64,000 nucleotides of DNA from assembly GCF_003790525.1 (NCBI RefSeq), contig NZ_CP033635.1. One strand, written 5' to 3'. Every line of letters begins with the position of its first letter. The stretch's first letter is position 1. Of the stretch, positions 24,466 through 28,649 are shown piece after piece. The notes beneath the pieces were generated by a model that was not told the DNA's origin, did no database searches, and saw only the letters and a list, made by a program, of their open reading frames with translations. The DNA comes from Escherichia coli. Lineage in GTDB: Bacteria; Pseudomonadota; Gammaproteobacteria; Enterobacterales; Enterobacteriaceae. A program made the translations under genes and the position numbers.

Positions 24466-25284
24466 ATGCGATTAGCCAGTCGTTTTGGTTATGCGAACCA
24501 GATACGCCGTGACCGTCCGCTGACCCGTGAAGAGCTGATGCACCATGTGCCCGGGATTTTCGGGGAAGATAAACACACCTCCCGGAGCCGGAACTATACA
24601 TACATCCCCACCATCACCGTGCTGGAAAGCCTGCAGCGGGAAGGCTTTCAGCCCTTCTTCGCCTGCCAGACCCGCGTACGTGACCCGGGCCGCCGGGGGT
24701 ATACCAAACACATGCTGCGTCTGCGCCGTGACGGGGAGATAAACGGACAACATGTCCCTGAAATTATTCTGCTCAACTCTCATGACGGTACCTCCAGCTA
24801 CCAGATGCTGCCGGGTTACTTCAGGTTCGTCTGCCAGAACGGATGCGTCTGCGGTCAGTCTCTGGGGGAAGTGCGTGTTCCGCACCGGGGAAATGTGGTG
24901 GACAGAGTCATTGAAGGGGCTTACGAGGTGGTGGGCGTGTTTGACCGGATAGAGGAGAAGCGTGATGCCATGCAGTCGCTGGTCCTGCCGCCACCGGCAC
25001 GCCAGGCGCTGGCACAGGCGGCACTGACTTACCGTTATGGTGACGAACATCAGCCCGTCACCACCGCCGACATTCTGACACCACGACGCCGGGAGGATTA
25101 CGGTAAGGACCTGTGGAGTGCTTATCAGACCATCCAGGAGAATATGCTGAAAGGCGGGATTTCCGGTCGCAGTGCAAAAGGAAAACGTATCCATACCCGG
25201 GCCATTCACAGCATTGATACCGATATAAAACTCAACCGCGCATTGTGGGTGATGGCAGAAACGCTGCTGGAGAGCATGCGCTGA
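24466..25284 (+). CDS. DUF932-family protein (YfjQ/YafZ-like)
   Basis: 272-aa ORF; size and position after the GTPase match YfjQ/YafZ of CP4-57/CP4-6. Confidence 0.65.
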   Translation: MRLASRFGYANQIRRDRPLTREELMHHVPGIFGEDKHTSRSRNYTYIPTITVLESLQREGFQPFFACQTRVRDPGRRGYTKHMLRLRRDGEINGQHVPEIILLNSHDGTSSYQMLPGYFRFVCQNGCVCGQSLGEVRVPHRGNVVDRVIEGAYEVVGVFDRIEEKRDAMQSLVLPPPARQALAQAALTYRYGDEHQPVTTADILTPRRREDYGKDLWSAYQTIQENMLKGGISGRSAKGKRIHTRAIHSIDTDIKLNRALWVMAETLLESMR

Positions 25285-25365
25285 TGCCGTTTCCCTGAGT
25301 GAGGGAATCATTCAGCTTTCGTTCCTGAAAAACACACATTTATTTGTTATTTAAGGCGTTATCTC

Positions 25366-25845
25366 ATGAAAACCGTTTCTCAGAATACCCCCACAATTTA
25401 TTCAGCTACAACACCAGAGAATAATCCGCCTCAGTTGGTTGCCAGCCTCGTCCCTGATGAACAGCGCATCAGCTTCTGGCCGCAGCATTTTGGCCTCATT
25501 CCACAGTGGGTGACCCTGGAGCCCCGTGTCTTCGGCTGGATGGACCGTCTGTGCGAAGACTACTGCGGTGGTATCTGGAATCTGTACACCCTGAACAACG
25601 GCGGGGCATTTATGGCCCCCGAACCGGATGATGATGATGACGAAACATGGGTACTGTTCAATGCCATGAACGGTAACCGCGCTGAAATGAGCCCGGAAGC
25701 CGCCGGCATTGCTGCCTGTCTGATGACGTACAGTCATCACGCCTGCCGTACGGAGTGTTATGCCATGACGGTTCATTATTACCGTCTGCGGGATTACGCC
25801 CTGCAGCATCCGGAATGCAGCGCCATTATGCGCATCATTGACTGA
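25366..25845 (+). CDS. antirestriction protein (ArdB/KlcA family, YfjX-like)
   Basis: 159-aa ORF with an acidic DDDDDE stretch; recognised as the YfjX/KlcA-type protein of CP4 islands. Confidence 0.7.
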   Translation: MKTVSQNTPTIYSATTPENNPPQLVASLVPDEQRISFWPQHFGLIPQWVTLEPRVFGWMDRLCEDYCGGIWNLYTLNNGGAFMAPEPDDDDDETWVLFNAMNGNRAEMSPEAAGIAACLMTYSHHACRTECYAMTVHYYRLRDYALQHPECSAIMRIID

Positions 25846-25860
25846 AAGGGGGCCGGAACA

Positions 25861-26337
25861 ATGCAACAGATTTCCTTTCTGCCCGGAGAAATGACAACCA
25901 GAGAGCGCAGCCTCATTCAGCGGGCCCTGAAAGCCCTGGACCGCCATCTTCATGAACCCGGCGTGGCCTTCACCTCCACGCATGCGGCACGGGAATGGCT
26001 GATTCTGAACATGGCGGGACTGGAGCGTGAAGAATTCCGGGTGCTGTATCTGAACAACCAGAATCAGCTGATTGCCGGTGAAACCCTCTTCACCGGCACC
26101 ATCAACCGCACGGAAGTCCATCCCCGGGAAGTGATTAAACGCGCCCTGTACCACAATGCCGCTGCCGTGGTGCTGGCGCACAATCACCCGTCCGGTGAAG
26201 TCACACCCAGCAAGGCAGACCGCCTTATCACGGAACGTCTGGTACAGGCACTGGGCCTGGTGGATATCCGGGTGCCGGACCATCTGATAGTCGGTGGCAG
26301 CCAGGTTTTCTCCTTTGCCGAACATGGTCTGCTTTAA
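25861..26337 (+). CDS. RadC-like JAB-domain protein (YeeS/YfjY/YkfG family)
   Basis: 158-aa ORF with the JAB/MPN metal motif region HNHPSGEVTPSKADRLITERL. Confidence 0.8.
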   Translation: MQQISFLPGEMTTRERSLIQRALKALDRHLHEPGVAFTSTHAAREWLILNMAGLEREEFRVLYLNNQNQLIAGETLFTGTINRTEVHPREVIKRALYHNAAAVVLAHNHPSGEVTPSKADRLITERLVQALGLVDIRVPDHLIVGGSQVFSFAEHGLL

Positions 26338-26399
26338 CCCGTCACAACCACATCACACCTGTTTTCACTTTTATCTTCTGTCTTCAGAGGTATCCCATT

Positions 26400-26621
26400 A
26401 TGAAAATTATCACCCGTGGTGAAGCCATGCGTATTCACCAACAGCATCCTGCATCCCGTCTATTTCCGTTCTGCACCGGTAAGTACCGCTGGCACGGCAG
26501 TGCTGAGACGTATACCGGTCGTGAAGTACAGGATATTCCCGGTGTGCTGGCCGTGTTTGCTGAACGCCGTAAGGACAGTTTTGGCCCGTATGTCCGGCTG
26601 ATGAGCGTCACCCTGAACTGA
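26400..26621 (+). CDS. DUF987-family small protein (YeeT/YkfH/YpjJ-like)
   Basis: 73-aa ORF in the conserved position between the RadC-like gene and the antitoxin gene. Confidence 0.6.
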   Translation: MKIITRGEAMRIHQQHPASRLFPFCTGKYRWHGSAETYTGREVQDIPGVLAVFAERRKDSFGPYVRLMSVTLN

Positions 26622-26639
26622 ATCAGAAAGGGGATTCTG

Positions 26640-27284
26640 ATGAGCAGCATTATCACCATCACAGTGTATACGCTGGATGAACTTTCCTGCCCGGTACGGG
26701 GAAAAGCCCGCGACGGGTACCGTCAGCATCATGCTGACAGCAACTGGTATGAAAACGTGTATGAGGACTTCAGGGCGGTCTGTGACATTTTCGGAATTGA
26801 CCTCCGCCAGCGCGTTTTCCGGCTCAGCAACGGCAGGTTTATGGAAGAGCCGTGCATCTGGTTCAGCGGATGCTGCAGCCAGGGGGACGGAGCCTGTTTT
26901 GAAGGACGCTGGCACTGGCAGCCGGCGACAGCCCGGATAATCCGGAAGTATGCCCCACAGGAGCATGAACTCCATCGTATCGCGGATGCCCTGCAGGCGG
27001 TGCAGAAGCGTAACTTCTGGCAACTGCAGGCTGAAATCCACCGCCGGGGACGCTACTGCCATCCGTACAGCATGGATATCACTGTTACCCGGAACAGTCC
27101 GACTGGTCAGACTATGACAACAGATGCGGAAGCCGCTGTCAGCGAAGCCCTGCGCGACCTGGCCTTATGGCTGTACCGTCAACTGGAAAACGAGCACAAC
27201 AGGCTGACCTCAGATGCCCCTGTGGATGAGGCCCTTCTCATCAACGAATACACCTTCACCGAAGCCGGTCTGCGCACCGGCTGA
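26640..27284 (+). CDS. hypothetical protein (extra gene between yeeT-like and cbeA; family not assigned)
   Basis: 214-aa ORF, same strand, starts 18 bp after the preceding stop and ends 50 bp before the cbeA start; fills a gap that is essentially empty in the K-12 CP4 prophages as I recall them; has a Cys-rich patch (CIWFSGCCSQGDGACFEGRWHW). Confidence 0.45.
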   Translation: MSSIITITVYTLDELSCPVRGKARDGYRQHHADSNWYENVYEDFRAVCDIFGIDLRQRVFRLSNGRFMEEPCIWFSGCCSQGDGACFEGRWHWQPATARIIRKYAPQEHELHRIADALQAVQKRNFWQLQAEIHRRGRYCHPYSMDITVTRNSPTGQTMTTDAEAAVSEALRDLALWLYRQLENEHNRLTSDAPVDEALLINEYTFTEAGLRTG

Positions 27285-27333
27285 CCTGTCAAAGTTAAAC
27301 TATCATTCAACGATTTTCTGTGAGGATTTTATC

Positions 27334-27702
27334 GTGTCAGACACACTCCCCGGGACAACGCATCACGACGACAATCACGACCGCCTCTGGTGGGGACTGC
27401 CCTGCACCGTGACGCCCTGTTTCGGGGCACGTCTGGTGCAGGAGGGTAACCGGTTGCATTACCTTGCCGACCGTGCCGGTATCAGAGGCCGGTTCAGAGA
27501 TGCGGATGCGTACCATCCGGACCAGGCCTTTCCGCTGCCGATGAAACAACTGGAGCTCATGCTCACCAGCGGTGAACTGAATCCCCGCCATCAGCATACC
27601 GTGACACTGTATGCGAAGGGGCTGACCTGTGAAGCCGACACCCTCGGCTCCTGTGGTTACGTTTATCTGGCTGTTTATCCGACGCCCGAAACGAAAAAGT
27701 AA
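27334..27702 (+). CDS. cbeA: type IV toxin-antitoxin system antitoxin, CbeA/YeeU/YfjZ/YafW family
   Basis: Start placed at GTG 27334 ([52 protein letters not shown]..., 122 aa) rather than the upstream ATG of the track ORF. Confidence 0.75.
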
Positions 27703-27791
27703 ATCATCAGAATAATCTTCTGCTCCGGCCTGGTGTTTTCACCACGCCACTGTCCCATTTTTTATCTCTGCATATCAGGAAAATCTTCATT

Positions 27792-28166
27792 ATGAAAACA
27801 TTACCCGACACGCATGTACGGGAGGCATCGTGTTGCCCGTCTCCCGTCACCATCTGGCAGACACTGCTCACCCGGTTACTGGACCAGCATTACAGCCTTA
27901 CGCTGAATGACACACCGTTCGCGGATGAACGCGTGATTGAGCTGCATATTGAGGCAGGCATTTCACTGTGTGATGCGGTGAACTTTCTCGTGGAAAAATA
28001 CGCGCTGGTGCGTACCGACCAGCCGGGATTCAGCGCCTGTACCCGCTCTCAGTTAATAAACAGCATCGATATCCTCCGGGCTCGCAGGGCGACCGGCCTG
28101 ATGACCCGCGACAATTACAGAACGGTAAATAACATTACCCTGGGTAAGTATCCGGAGGCGAAATGA
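27792..28166 (+). CDS. cbtA: type IV toxin-antitoxin system toxin, CbtA/YeeV/YpjF/YkfI family
   Basis: 124-aa ORF closely resembling CbtA (…[90 protein letters not shown]). Confidence 0.8.
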
Positions 28167-28588
28167 TGAAACTGGCCCTGACATTGGAAGCAGACAGCGT
28201 TAACGTACAGGCACTGAATATAGGGCGAATTGTCGTTGACATTGATGGTGTTGAGCTCACTGAACTGATTAACAAGGTCGCTGAATACGGTTATTCACTC
28301 CGCGTGGTGGATGAACGTGACGCTACCGAAACACCGGCGACTTCTGCCAGCTCTCATCAGTTGCCGGAAGACAATACAGTGATACAGAGCGTGATGCCAT
28401 TAACCACTGAAACAGCGCTGGATATCCTCATTGCGTGGCTGCAGGACAATATCGACTGCGGGTCCGGAATTATTTTCGACAACGATGAGGATAAAACGGA
28501 TTCGGCAGCATTGTTGCCCTGTATCGAACAGGCCAGGGAGGATATCCGTACCCTGCACCAACTGCAACTTCTGCACCAGAACCGGTGA
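28163..28588 (+). CDS. YeeW-like protein
   Basis: 141-aa ORF overlapping the cbtA stop by 4 nt, in the usual position 3' of cbtA. Confidence 0.55.
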
Positions 28589-28617
28589 ATCTCACTCACC
28601 AGACTTCATTCTCCTGA

Positions 28618-28649
28618 CGCCAGCCTGAACAGAGCTGGCGTTTTCATTT
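28618..28649 (+). terminator. rho-independent terminator after the cbeA-cbtA-yeeW unit
   Basis: Hairpin cgccagc ctgaacaga gctggcg followed by ttttcattt. Confidence 0.6.

What the first reader, a model, noticed from the sequence alone, without database searches (positions are those of the whole stretch)
24466..28649. Complete CP4-type addiction / anti-restriction module
DUF932, ArdB/KlcA-like antirestriction, RadC-like JAB, DUF987, then CbeA antitoxin, CbtA toxin (targets the cytoskeletal proteins FtsZ/MreB in K-12) and a YeeW-like gene, closed by a terminator. All appear intact, unlike the IS-rich left half of the island. This is a known system, flagged because an intact CbtA copy can be toxic.
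Basis: established knowledge. Interest (0 to 1): 0.35.

Follow-up and report, generated by a model that had tools for sequence, protein, structure and literature searches.

The report
Known island anti-restriction and toxin–antitoxin operon

Summary
Window 24466-28649 (E. coli isolate F374) holds co-directional genes for DUF932, an ArdB antirestriction protein, a RadC-like JAB protein, DUF987, CbeA antitoxin, CbtA toxin and a YeeW-like ORF. It is bracketed by two terminator-like hairpins.

Three corrections:
- A 214-aa gene (26640-27284) between DUF987 and cbeA was overlooked. It belongs to a very large family on mobile elements. It has no Pfam or NCBIfam match and no solved-fold match.
- The "YeeW-like" ORF is not intact. 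A ~275-bp deletion fused the DUF5983 N-terminal domain in frame to the DUF957 gene. Flanking DUF905 and DUF4942 are also damaged.
- "Addiction" is not established for this toxin–antitoxin type.

CbtA keeps F65, the FtsZ determinant, and has no stop or frameshift. It carries C15 (the family majority), G35S (rare) and Q51L (in none of 82 representatives). CbeA carries L69P, in none of 95. The exact toxin and antitoxin sequences each occur on at least 1000 public contigs. dN/dS against other copies is 0.08-0.39 for the pair.

Similar DNA occurs in 5016 of 5426 complete E. coli genomes, with a median of three places each. Verdict: already known, low interest.

The parts
24388..24417 (+). Terminator-like hairpin (12 pairs) plus T-run between DUF905 and DUF932; marks the upstream edge of the flagged unit
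   Evidence: 12 pairs, 7 GC; dG -20.3 kcal/mol, z -4.5, 0 of 200 shuffles fold as well. Conserved in strain GN02100.
24466..25284 (+). DUF932 protein, 272 aa (YafZ/YfjQ type), full length
   Evidence: Pfam PF06067 6e-52 covering 1-227/227. 92% identical to the O157 serW-island copy and 74-75% to K-12 YfjQ/YafZ. dN/dS 0.10-0.14.
25366..25845 (+). ArdB-type antirestriction protein, 159 aa
   Evidence: PF03230 2e-37. phmmer E 1e-101 to PDB 2WJ9 over the whole length, and 4e-21 to KlcA 2KMG. dN/dS 0.07-0.27.
25861..26337 (+). RadC-like JAB/MPN protein, 158 aa (YeeS/YkfG/LfgB type)
   Evidence: PF04002 1e-44. Intact HxHx7Sx2D motif HNHPSGEVTPSKAD at residues 107-120. 97% identical to K-12 YeeS.
26400..26621 (+). 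DUF987 protein, 73 aa (YeeT type)
   Evidence: PF06174 1e-39. 97% identical to K-12 YeeT. dN/dS 0.03-0.10.
26640..27284 (+).
27334..27702 (+). CbeA (YeeU) type IV antitoxin, 122 aa, GTG start
   Evidence: PF06154 9e-52. 90% identical to K-12 CbeA. The GTG start with the same upstream sequence is also used in K-12. E 2e-75 and 3e-74 to PDB 2INW and 2H28. Carries L62P (8 of 95 representatives) and L69P (0 of 95). The exact sequence is on >=1000 contigs.
27703..27791 (+). 89-nt cbeA-cbtA spacer, the CP4-44-type spacing
   Evidence: K-12 has 88 nt for cbeA-cbtA versus 20 nt in the other two K-12 pairs (PMC5371832). Its fold is not significant (z -1.6).
27792..28166 (+). CbtA (YeeV) toxin, 124 aa, full length
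   Evidence: PF06755 5e-62 covering 1-112/112. 90% identical to K-12 CbtA. F65 retained. C15 in 54 of 82 representatives, G35S in 5 of 82, Q51L in 0 of 82. The exact sequence is on >=1000 contigs. dN/dS 0.08-0.26.
28163..28588 (+). 141-aa ORF: in-frame fusion of the DUF5983 N-terminal domain (YeeW-like) with DUF957, made by a ~275-bp deletion; overlaps the cbtA stop by 4 nt (ATGA)
   Evidence: DUF5983_N only, residues 5-58. DNA alignment to the long form in O157 (163-aa DUF5983 followed by 65-aa DUF957) shows the deletion. Protein comparison. PGAP annotates a partial DUF5983 pseudogene plus DUF957 at 28391-28588. DUF957 frame dN/dS 0.13 versus 1.07-6.3 in the other frames.
28616..28649 (+). 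Terminator-like hairpin (28616-28642) with U-rich tail
   Evidence: dG -17 kcal/mol for the 56-nt segment, z -2.75, 2 of 200 shuffles fold as well. Stem and T-run columns are invariant in four aligned loci. The consensus scan missed it, probably because of its 9-nt loop.
22527..24365 (+). Upstream co-directional genes of the same conserved block: YeeP/YkfA-type GTPase (22527-23411), 225-aa hypothetical protein with no family match (23530-24207), and DUF905 truncated to 50 aa (24213-24365)
   Evidence: The DUF905 truncation (50 versus 77-79 aa) is due to a deletion.
28673..29458 (+). DUF4942 gene, frameshifted by a 1-bp deletion near 29353; homology to other copies is lost after about 29445
   Evidence: PF13708 4e-44. 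Alignment to the O157 and ETEC4068 copies. PGAP: frameshifted.

Best explanation
The interval is one copy of the conserved accessory gene block found at the end of P4-like-integrase genomic islands of Enterobacteriaceae (CP4-6, CP4-44 and CP4-57 in K-12; the serW/serX, ileX and similar islands elsewhere). Here it sits in a large, IS-ridden aerobactin/sit island of E. coli F374.

Shown:
- Eight co-directional ORFs with gaps of -4 to 89 nt lie between two terminator-like hairpins.
- They encode DUF932, an ArdB antirestriction protein, a RadC-like JAB protein with an intact metalloprotease motif, DUF987, an uncharacterised 214-aa protein, CbeA, CbtA, and a DUF5983N-DUF957 deletion fusion.

Inferred from characterised homologues:
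- ArdB blocks Type I restriction in vivo.
- CbtA, if expressed above the antitoxin's capacity, binds the FtsZ H6/H7 loop through the F65 surface and stops division. Inhibition of MreB is likely but uncertain.
- CbeA counteracts CbtA without binding it, by bundling FtsZ and MreB polymers.

Inferred from gene content, orientation and plasmid contexts:
- The block descends from an establishment / anti-defence cassette of a transferable element, comparable to plasmid leading regions. It is now a resident, partly eroded passenger.
- Expression as one operon is inferred from the K-12 yfjXY-ypjJ-yfjZF operon and was not shown here.
For: - Family assignments. Identical RefSeq record and annotation.
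- Ubiquity: 5016 of 5426 genomes, median 3 places per genome.
- Same gene order, ending at a tRNA, in O157, 83972 and ETEC4068, and on E. coli plasmid pB39_V.
- ArdB matches PDB 2WJ9 at E 1e-101. ArdB and KlcA have in vivo anti-Type I activity (PMC2836571).
- The JAMM motif is intact. K-12 homologue LfgB is reported to be a protease, and yfjXY-ypjJ-yfjZF is described as an operon (PMC10846083).
- CbtA and CbeA alignments to K-12. F65 and R15 genetics: PMC5624674. CbeA mechanism as summarised in PMC5624674.
- dN/dS is 0.03-0.39 for all full-length genes against diverged copies.
- Hairpins.
- Homologues of p214, RadC, DUF932 and antirestriction proteins lie co-oriented next to methyltransferase or strawberry-notch helicase genes, and in two cases next to an MbcA/RES toxin-antitoxin pair, on alphaproteobacterial plasmids, one of them typed conjugative.
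- Leading regions are enriched in co-oriented anti-restriction, methyltransferase and toxin-antitoxin genes (PMC11541004).
Against: - No sigma-70-like promoter was found on the + strand of 21000-30000 by the consensus scan, so the transcription unit is not demonstrated.
- This allele pair carries substitutions that are rare or unseen among family representatives: CbtA Q51L (0 of 82) and G35S (5 of 82); CbeA L69P (0 of 95). Activity of toxin or antitoxin could therefore be altered.
- C15 in a CP4-44-type backbone corresponds to the R15C change that abolishes MreB binding in K-12 CbtA. YpjF and YkfI also have C15 and still affect elongation (PMC5624674).
- Neither an oriT nor an integrase was looked for, and no tRNA is present in the window. 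The right end is truncated. The link to transfer is therefore historical inference.
- No experimental evidence shows that CbtA/CbeA stabilises islands (PMC5371832).
Confidence: 0.88

Rival explanations
1. The toxin-antitoxin pair in this copy is functionally dead or weakened. On this reading it is a neutral hitchhiker eroding together with its neighbours (DUF905, DUF5983, DUF4942), so the intact reading frames are misleading.
For: - CbeA L69P sits at a position that is Leu in 95 of 95 representative homologues, and L62P is in 8 of 95.
- CbtA Q51L is in 0 of 82 representatives and G35S in 5 of 82.
- Three neighbouring genes carry deletions or frameshifts.
- K-12 antitoxin deletions are viable, which implies weak selection on any one copy (PMC5371832).
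- There are four places matching the module in this genome.
Against: - Both ORFs are full length, with a conserved start and upstream sequence.
- F65 and 60 columns invariant among the K-12 paralogues are retained.
- dN/dS is 0.08-0.39 against other copies.
- The exact alleles are each found on >=1000 contigs.
- In a moderate-confidence model both prolines fall at helix N-termini (residues 62 and 69 of helices 62-65 and 67-79), where proline is usually tolerated (pLDDT 65.7).
Confidence: 0.15
2. The block is now a host-domesticated stress-response operon rather than an element-selfish cassette. In K-12 CP4-57, the RadC-like protease LfgB degrades antitoxin MqsA and the toxins contribute to oxidative-stress tolerance.
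For: - The K-12 lfgAB-ypjJ-yfjZF operon is induced through MqsR/MqsA, and LfgB protects against H2O2, acid and heat (PMC10846083).
- Deleting all three K-12 toxins lowers oxidative-stress resistance (PMC5371832).
- There is strong purifying selection on RadC and DUF987.
Against: - The RadC here is only 74% identical to LfgB.
- The upstream region differs: ArdB starts 81 nt after DUF932, whereas the MqsA site in K-12 lies 245 bp upstream of lfgA. The regulation therefore cannot be transferred.
- Copy number and presence vary strongly among strains, as expected for accessory element genes.
Confidence: 0.2
3. The CbtA/CbeA pair (with p214 and the DUF5983/DUF957 genes) acts as an abortive-infection type phage-defence system.
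For: - Many toxin-antitoxin systems defend against phage, including another type IV system, AbiE (PMC3985639).
- The downstream gene overlaps the cbtA stop by 4 nt, consistent with a multi-component unit.
Against: - No protein of the block matches any PADLOC defence model, apart from weak GTPase P-loop hits.
- The neighbours are anti-defence genes (ArdB), not defence genes.
- None of the papers retrieved here reports phage defence by CbtA.
Confidence: 0.07

Closest known systems
cbeA-cbtA (yeeU-yeeV) with yeeS, yeeT and yeeW of cryptic prophage CP4-44, E. coli K-12
   Same: Same order RadC-DUF987-antitoxin-toxin-YeeW. Identities are 97/97/90/90% for RadC, DUF987, CbeA and CbtA. The cbeA GTG start and the ~89-nt spacer are the same. 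yeeW is likewise only the N-terminal part of DUF5983.
   Different: CP4-44 has no DUF932, no ArdB and no 214-aa gene. K-12 CbtA has R15, G35 and Q51, whereas here they are C15, S35 and L51. K-12 CbeA has L62 and L69, here P62 and P69. K-12 yeeW carries a further deletion that removes most of DUF957.
serW/serX-, ileX- and plasmid-borne versions of the block (O157:H7 H2495, strain 83972, ETEC4068, plasmid pB39_V)
   Same: Same order DUF932-ArdB-RadC-DUF987-(p214)-CbeA-CbtA-DUF5983-DUF957-DUF4942. Protein identities to the O157 copy are 88-97%.
   Different: Those copies keep a full-length DUF5983 (162-163 aa) and a separate DUF957, and the chromosomal ones end at a tRNA gene. DUF4942 is intact in O157, ETEC4068 and pB39_V but frameshifted in 83972. 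The window copy has the deletion fusion and a frameshifted, 3'-truncated DUF4942, and abuts ynjB without a tRNA.
yfjX(lfgA)-yfjY(lfgB)-ypjJ-yfjZ-ypjF operon of CP4-57 and the yafX-ykfG-ykfH-yafW-ykfI genes of CP4-6
   Same: Same five-gene core of antirestriction, RadC, DUF987, antitoxin and toxin. The toxins act on FtsZ through F65 (PMC5624674).
   Different: Only 58-82% identical. The toxins are shorter (109 and 113 aa), the spacer is 20 nt, and there is no p214 gene and no DUF5983/DUF957 downstream (PMC5371832).
Anti-defence islands in leading regions of conjugative plasmids
   Same: Co-oriented small genes that include ArdB/KlcA-type antirestriction and a toxin-antitoxin pair (PMC11541004). 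Homologues of DUF932, antirestriction, RadC and p214 cluster on alphaproteobacterial plasmids beside methyltransferase/helicase genes.
   Different: Here the block is chromosomal, in a degraded island. No oriT, relaxase, ssb/psiB or ssDNA promoter was identified, and none was searched for systematically.

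Membership tests
CbtA/CbeA type IV toxin-antitoxin system | Toxin with a full-length CbtA_toxin domain (PF06755) | tested here: met
   E 4.6e-62, profile 1-112/112; 90% identical to K-12 CbtA, with no stop or frameshift.
CbtA/CbeA type IV toxin-antitoxin system | CbeA_antitoxin (PF06154) gene immediately upstream on the same strand | tested here: met
   E 8.8e-52; 89-nt spacer and a GTG start, as in K-12.
CbtA/CbeA type IV toxin-antitoxin system | F65, the residue needed for FtsZ binding in CbtA, YpjF and YkfI | tested here: met
   F65 is invariant. F in 81 of 82 representatives. Genetics in PMC5624674.
CbtA/CbeA type IV toxin-antitoxin system | R15, the residue needed for MreB binding in K-12 CbtA (not conserved across the family) | tested here: not met
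   C15 here, as in 54 of 82 representatives and in YpjF and YkfI. R15C abolishes MreB binding in K-12 CbtA, but C15R has no effect in YpjF or YkfI (PMC5624674). This is not disqualifying.
CbtA/CbeA type IV toxin-antitoxin system | Toxicity on expression, and neutralisation by the antitoxin without direct toxin binding | not testable with these tools
   Needs expression and interaction assays.
ArdB/KlcA antirestriction proteins | Antirestrict domain (PF03230) and homology to the solved ArdB and KlcA structures | tested here: met
   2.4e-37. E 1e-101 to 2WJ9 over residues 1-159, and 4e-21 to KlcA 2KMG.
ArdB/KlcA antirestriction proteins | Relief of Type I restriction in vivo | not testable with these tools
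   Shown for ArdB and KlcA in PMC2836571, not for this allele.
RadC-like JAB/MPN proteins | RadC JAB domain with the metalloprotease motif HxHx7Sx2D | tested here: met
   PF04002 1.2e-44. HNHPSGEVTPSKAD at residues 107-120.
DUF5983 (YeeW) family | N-terminal domain (PF25638) | tested here: met
   2.5e-27, residues 5-58.
DUF5983 (YeeW) family | C-terminal domain (PF19419) as in the 162-163-aa proteins | tested here: not met
   No such hit. Searches show about 275 bp deleted relative to the O157, 83972 and ETEC4068 copies. PGAP: missing C-terminus.
Complete island-end block (DUF932 to DUF4942, then a tRNA) | All members full length, and the block ending at the tRNA attachment site | tested here: not met
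   DUF905 is truncated, DUF5983 is truncated and DUF4942 is frameshifted and 3'-truncated. There is no tRNA in the window. Core DNA resumes 13 bp before ynjB.
Addiction (post-segregational killing) module | Loss of the locus kills or arrests cells because the antitoxin is labile and the toxin stable | not testable with these tools
   For the K-12 homologues the antitoxin deletions are viable and there is no autoregulation (PMC5371832). Nothing here supports addiction.
Leading-region-type anti-defence island of a conjugative or mobilisable element | Co-oriented anti-defence and toxin-antitoxin genes whose homologues cluster on conjugative elements | tested here: met
   Twelve co-directional genes span 22527-29458.
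Leading-region-type anti-defence island of a conjugative or mobilisable element | Adjacency to an oriT and presence of ssDNA promoters | not tested
   No oriT or Frpo library was available. Rfam found nothing in 20000-31000.

The most novel reading that the evidence does not exclude
The overlooked 214-aa protein (26640-27284) may be a new establishment or anti-defence factor of transferable elements, possibly working together with the toxin-antitoxin pair that follows it.

What the evidence shows:
- Its family is very large: 2753 clusters at 50% identity.
- It has a confident predicted structure (pLDDT 96) with no solved-fold match.
- It carries a near-invariant SQGDGAxFxG loop and a near-invariant His141.
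- It has full-length phage homologues (phrog_5162).
- It recurs in co-oriented blocks with RadC, DUF932, antirestriction, methyltransferase and helicase genes on alphaproteobacterial plasmids.
- In E. coli and in two (related) Rhodobacterales plasmids it sits directly upstream of a toxin-antitoxin pair.

Nothing here excludes this reading, and nothing demonstrates it.
Probability: 0.25. Interest if true: 0.5.

Novelty: already known. Interest (0 to 1): 0.13.

Why it matters
It matters little as a discovery. The block is annotated in RefSeq, similar DNA occurs in over 90% of complete E. coli genomes, and its main components have solved structures or published genetics.

Some practical value remains:
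- The natural CbtA allele (C15, S35, L51) and CbeA allele (P62, P69) are common variants that differ from the K-12 reference at residues relevant to the MreB-binding question. They would be cheap to test.
- The "YeeW / DUF5983 / DUF957" annotation problem can be explained by simple deletions rather than a programmed frameshift. The DUF957 frame is under clear purifying selection (dN/dS 0.13), which bears on its listing as spurious.
- The 214-aa gene is a large, structurally unmatched family of mobile-element proteins that deserves a functional test.

Tried and rejected
- Rfam at permissive threshold on 20000-31000: no RNA family.
- PADLOC defence models: nothing except weak P-loop hits for the upstream GTPase.
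- Long antisense ORFs (279, 307 and 200 aa on the minus strand): no Pfam family. I treated them as shadow ORFs.
- NCBIfam: only RadC models hit.
- Promoter scan: no + strand sigma-70-like site in 21000-30000.
- The cbeA-cbtA spacer fold is not significant (z -1.6).
- I considered a GTG start as a defect of cbeA and rejected it, because K-12 and other copies use the same GTG.
- I considered C15 as an inactivating R15C-type change and rejected it, because C15 is the family majority.
- I considered transferring the MqsA regulation of the CP4-57 operon and rejected it, because the upstream architecture differs.
- No tRNA and no second copy of the module in the window. Window-wide repeats of at least 40 nt were found only in the adhesin gene.
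- The other three places in the F374 chromosome that match the module could not be located with the tools, because only the best place per record is listed.

Full report
**Source and anatomy.** The window is identical to E. coli isolate F374 chromosome NZ_OY754371.1 (window position = record position minus 968009). On the + strand, 22527-29458 carries twelve co-directional ORFs:
- a YeeP/YkfA-type GTPase
- a 225-aa protein with no family match
- DUF905
- DUF932 (24466-25284)
- an antirestriction protein (25366-25845)
- a RadC-like JAB protein (25861-26337)
- DUF987 (26400-26621)
- a 214-aa ORF (26640-27284)
- CbeA (27334-27702)
- CbtA (27792-28166)
- a 141-aa ORF (28163-28588)
- DUF4942 (28673-29458)

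Gaps inside the flagged interval run from -4 to 89 nt. The interval is bracketed by two terminator-like hairpins. One lies at 24388-24417 (dG -20.3, z -4.5). The other lies at 28616-28642 and is followed by UUCAUUU (dG -17, z -2.75). The second hairpin is invariant in four aligned loci. No sigma-70-like promoter was found on this strand, however. Co-transcription is inferred only from the K-12 yfjXY-ypjJ-yfjZF operon (PMC10846083).

**Check of the family calls.**
- The antirestriction protein matches the solved ArdB-type structure 2WJ9 at E 1e-101 over its whole length, and KlcA 2KMG at 4e-21. ArdB and KlcA relieve Type I restriction in vivo (PMC2836571).
- The RadC-like protein keeps the HxHx7Sx2D motif at residues 107-120. 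The K-12 homologue LfgB is reported to be a protease (PMC10846083).

1. *The 214-aa gene (26640-27284) is not in the list.* PGAP calls it hypothetical, "antitoxin of toxin-antitoxin stability system", or DUF8835.
   - About 1941 of 5426 complete E. coli genomes carry it at 80% coverage or more. Copies that lack it still keep its last ~170 bp upstream of cbeA, which suggests the gene was lost by deletion.
2. *The "YeeW-like gene" is not intact.*
   - In O157:H7, 83972 and ETEC4068, cbtA is followed by a 162-163-aa DUF5983 gene and then a separate 65-aa DUF957 gene in another frame.
   - The window lacks about 275 bp of this region. The deletion removes the DUF5983 C-terminal domain and places DUF957 in frame with the N-terminal domain. 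PGAP accordingly marks DUF5983 as a partial pseudogene.
   - The same short form is found in GN02100, and K-12 yeeW carries a further deletion.
   - A 2026 preprint (10.64898/2026.06.09.728211) noted fused, split and separate annotations downstream of cbtA and proposed a programmed frameshift. The alignments here offer plain deletions as a simpler explanation.
   - The DUF957 frame is genuinely coding: dN/dS is 0.13 in frame against 1.07-6.3 in the other two frames.
3. *The flanks are eroded.*
   - DUF905 is cut to 50 aa from 77-79 aa.
   - DUF4942 has a 1-bp deletion near 29353 and loses homology after about 29445.
   - No tRNA is present. Core DNA resumes at 29673, 13 bp before ynjB, a junction seen in only 29 of 5426 genomes.
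   - The block is therefore not "complete" by comparison with its fullest relatives.

**State of the toxin-antitoxin pair.**
- *Toxin, overall.* CbtA is 124 aa, 90% identical to K-12 CbtA, and 62% and 58% identical to YpjF and YkfI.
- *Toxin, key residues.* F65, required for FtsZ binding in all three K-12 toxins (PMC5624674), is present.
  - Position 15 is Cys. In K-12 CbtA the R15C change abolishes MreB binding, but YpjF and YkfI naturally have C15 and still affect elongation (PMC5624674). Among 82 representative homologues, C15 is the majority residue (54), so K-12 is the outlier.
  - G35S is rare (5 of 82). Q51L is not seen in any representative.
- *Antitoxin.* CbeA is 90% identical to K-12 CbeA and uses the same GTG start and upstream sequence as K-12.
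  - It carries L62P (8 of 95 representatives) and L69P (0 of 95).
  - In a moderate-confidence model (pLDDT 65.7) both prolines fall at helix N-termini, helices 62-65 and 67-79.
- *Population and selection.* The exact toxin, antitoxin and p214 sequences each occur on at least 1000 public contigs. dN/dS against four or five diverged copies is 0.08-0.26 for cbtA and 0.17-0.39 for cbeA.
Altered strength or target balance, especially for MreB, cannot be excluded.
- *On "addiction".* In K-12 the antitoxin genes can be deleted, the pairs are not autoregulated, and antitoxins cross-neutralise the paralogous toxins (PMC5371832). This genome has four places matching the module.

**The 214-aa protein (p214).**
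- It has no Pfam, NCBIfam, PADLOC or PDB sequence match. It has a full-length match to phrog_5162, of unknown function.
- An exhaustive search found 2753 clusters at 50% identity with E<=0.001.
- Conserved features are an SQGDGAxFxG loop and His141.
- Contexts of homologues on alphaproteobacterial plasmids and in metagenomic contigs:
  - Alphaproteobacterial plasmids, one of them typed conjugative, where it is co-oriented with RadC, DUF932, antirestriction or ArdC-like proteins, ParB, methyltransferase and strawberry-notch helicase genes.
  - Directly upstream of an MbcA/RES toxin-antitoxin pair in two related Rhodobacterales plasmids.
  - Beside an integrase and an N6-methyltransferase in one metagenomic contig, and in an array of small unknown genes in another.
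- This pattern resembles the anti-defence islands of plasmid leading regions (PMC11541004). It supports reading the whole block as a former establishment cassette. That reading is an inference.

**Comparison with known systems.**
- RadC, DUF987, CbeA and CbtA are of the CP4-44 lineage (90-97% identity).
- CP4-44 has no DUF932 or ArdB. Those two genes are only 68-75% identical to the CP4-6 and CP4-57 versions, but 92% identical to the O157 serW-island copy.
- The closest overall relatives are therefore the tRNA-associated island blocks of pathogenic E. coli, and an identical arrangement on plasmid pB39_V.

**Verdict.** This is a real, correctly recognised and already known module. DNA similar to it occurs in 5016 of 5426 complete E. 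coli genomes, with a median of three places per genome. Interest is low. The only part with some discovery potential is the uncharacterised 214-aa family.

Noticed in passing
window 29353-29686: The island's right end is atypical. DUF4942 loses homology after about 29445. About 220 bp of unrelated sequence follows. Core DNA then resumes at 29673, only 13 bp before the ynjB start, and ynjA is not adjacent. This junction occurs in only 29 of 5426 complete E. coli genomes, and no tRNA is present.
   Followed up: partly
window 23530-24207: A 225-aa ORF with no Pfam, NCBIfam, PHROG or PADLOC match. By eye its N-terminus ([21 protein letters not shown]) looks like a signal peptide. The exact sequence is on about 1000 contigs, and the gene is conserved upstream of DUF905 in other islands.
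   Followed up: partly
window 24213-24365: The DUF905 gene is truncated to 50 aa (77-79 aa in GN02100 and K-12 YkfF) by a deletion of roughly 80 bp, yet PGAP annotates it as an ordinary CDS.
   Followed up: yes
window 28391-28588: The DUF957 region gave no hit in the current Pfam copy. A 2026 preprint discusses an AntiFam family (ANF00264), listed as spurious, that lies next to DUF5983 downstream of cbtA; I suspect it corresponds to this region but did not verify that. dN/dS is 0.13 in the annotated frame versus more than 1 in the other frames, so this is a real coding frame.
   Followed up: yes
window 179-1512 (record 968188-969521): iucD of the aerobactin operon is annotated as frameshifted, while iutA, iucC, iucB and iucA are intact. 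This is either a real inactivation of aerobactin synthesis or an assembly error.
   Followed up: no
window 12215-12629: 99-nt tandem and 106-nt dispersed direct repeats lie inside the gene annotated as a YadA-like adhesin (11578-13218, minus strand). The region also shows strongly negative GC skew.
   Followed up: no
window 15748-16256 and 18257-18988: A frameshifted ProQ/FinO-family gene and an 'inovirus Gp2 family' gene lie in the AT-rich stretch to the left of the module, together with two unannotated-function ORFs at 20599-21474 (+) and 21471-22424 (-) that have no Pfam hit.
   Followed up: no
L011 7007-8807 and L015 8001-9803 (Rhodobacterales plasmids): The p214 homologue sits directly upstream of an MbcA/ParS-RES toxin-antitoxin pair. 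This mirrors its position upstream of cbeA-cbtA in E. coli, although the two plasmids share a backbone and so count as one observation.
   Followed up: partly
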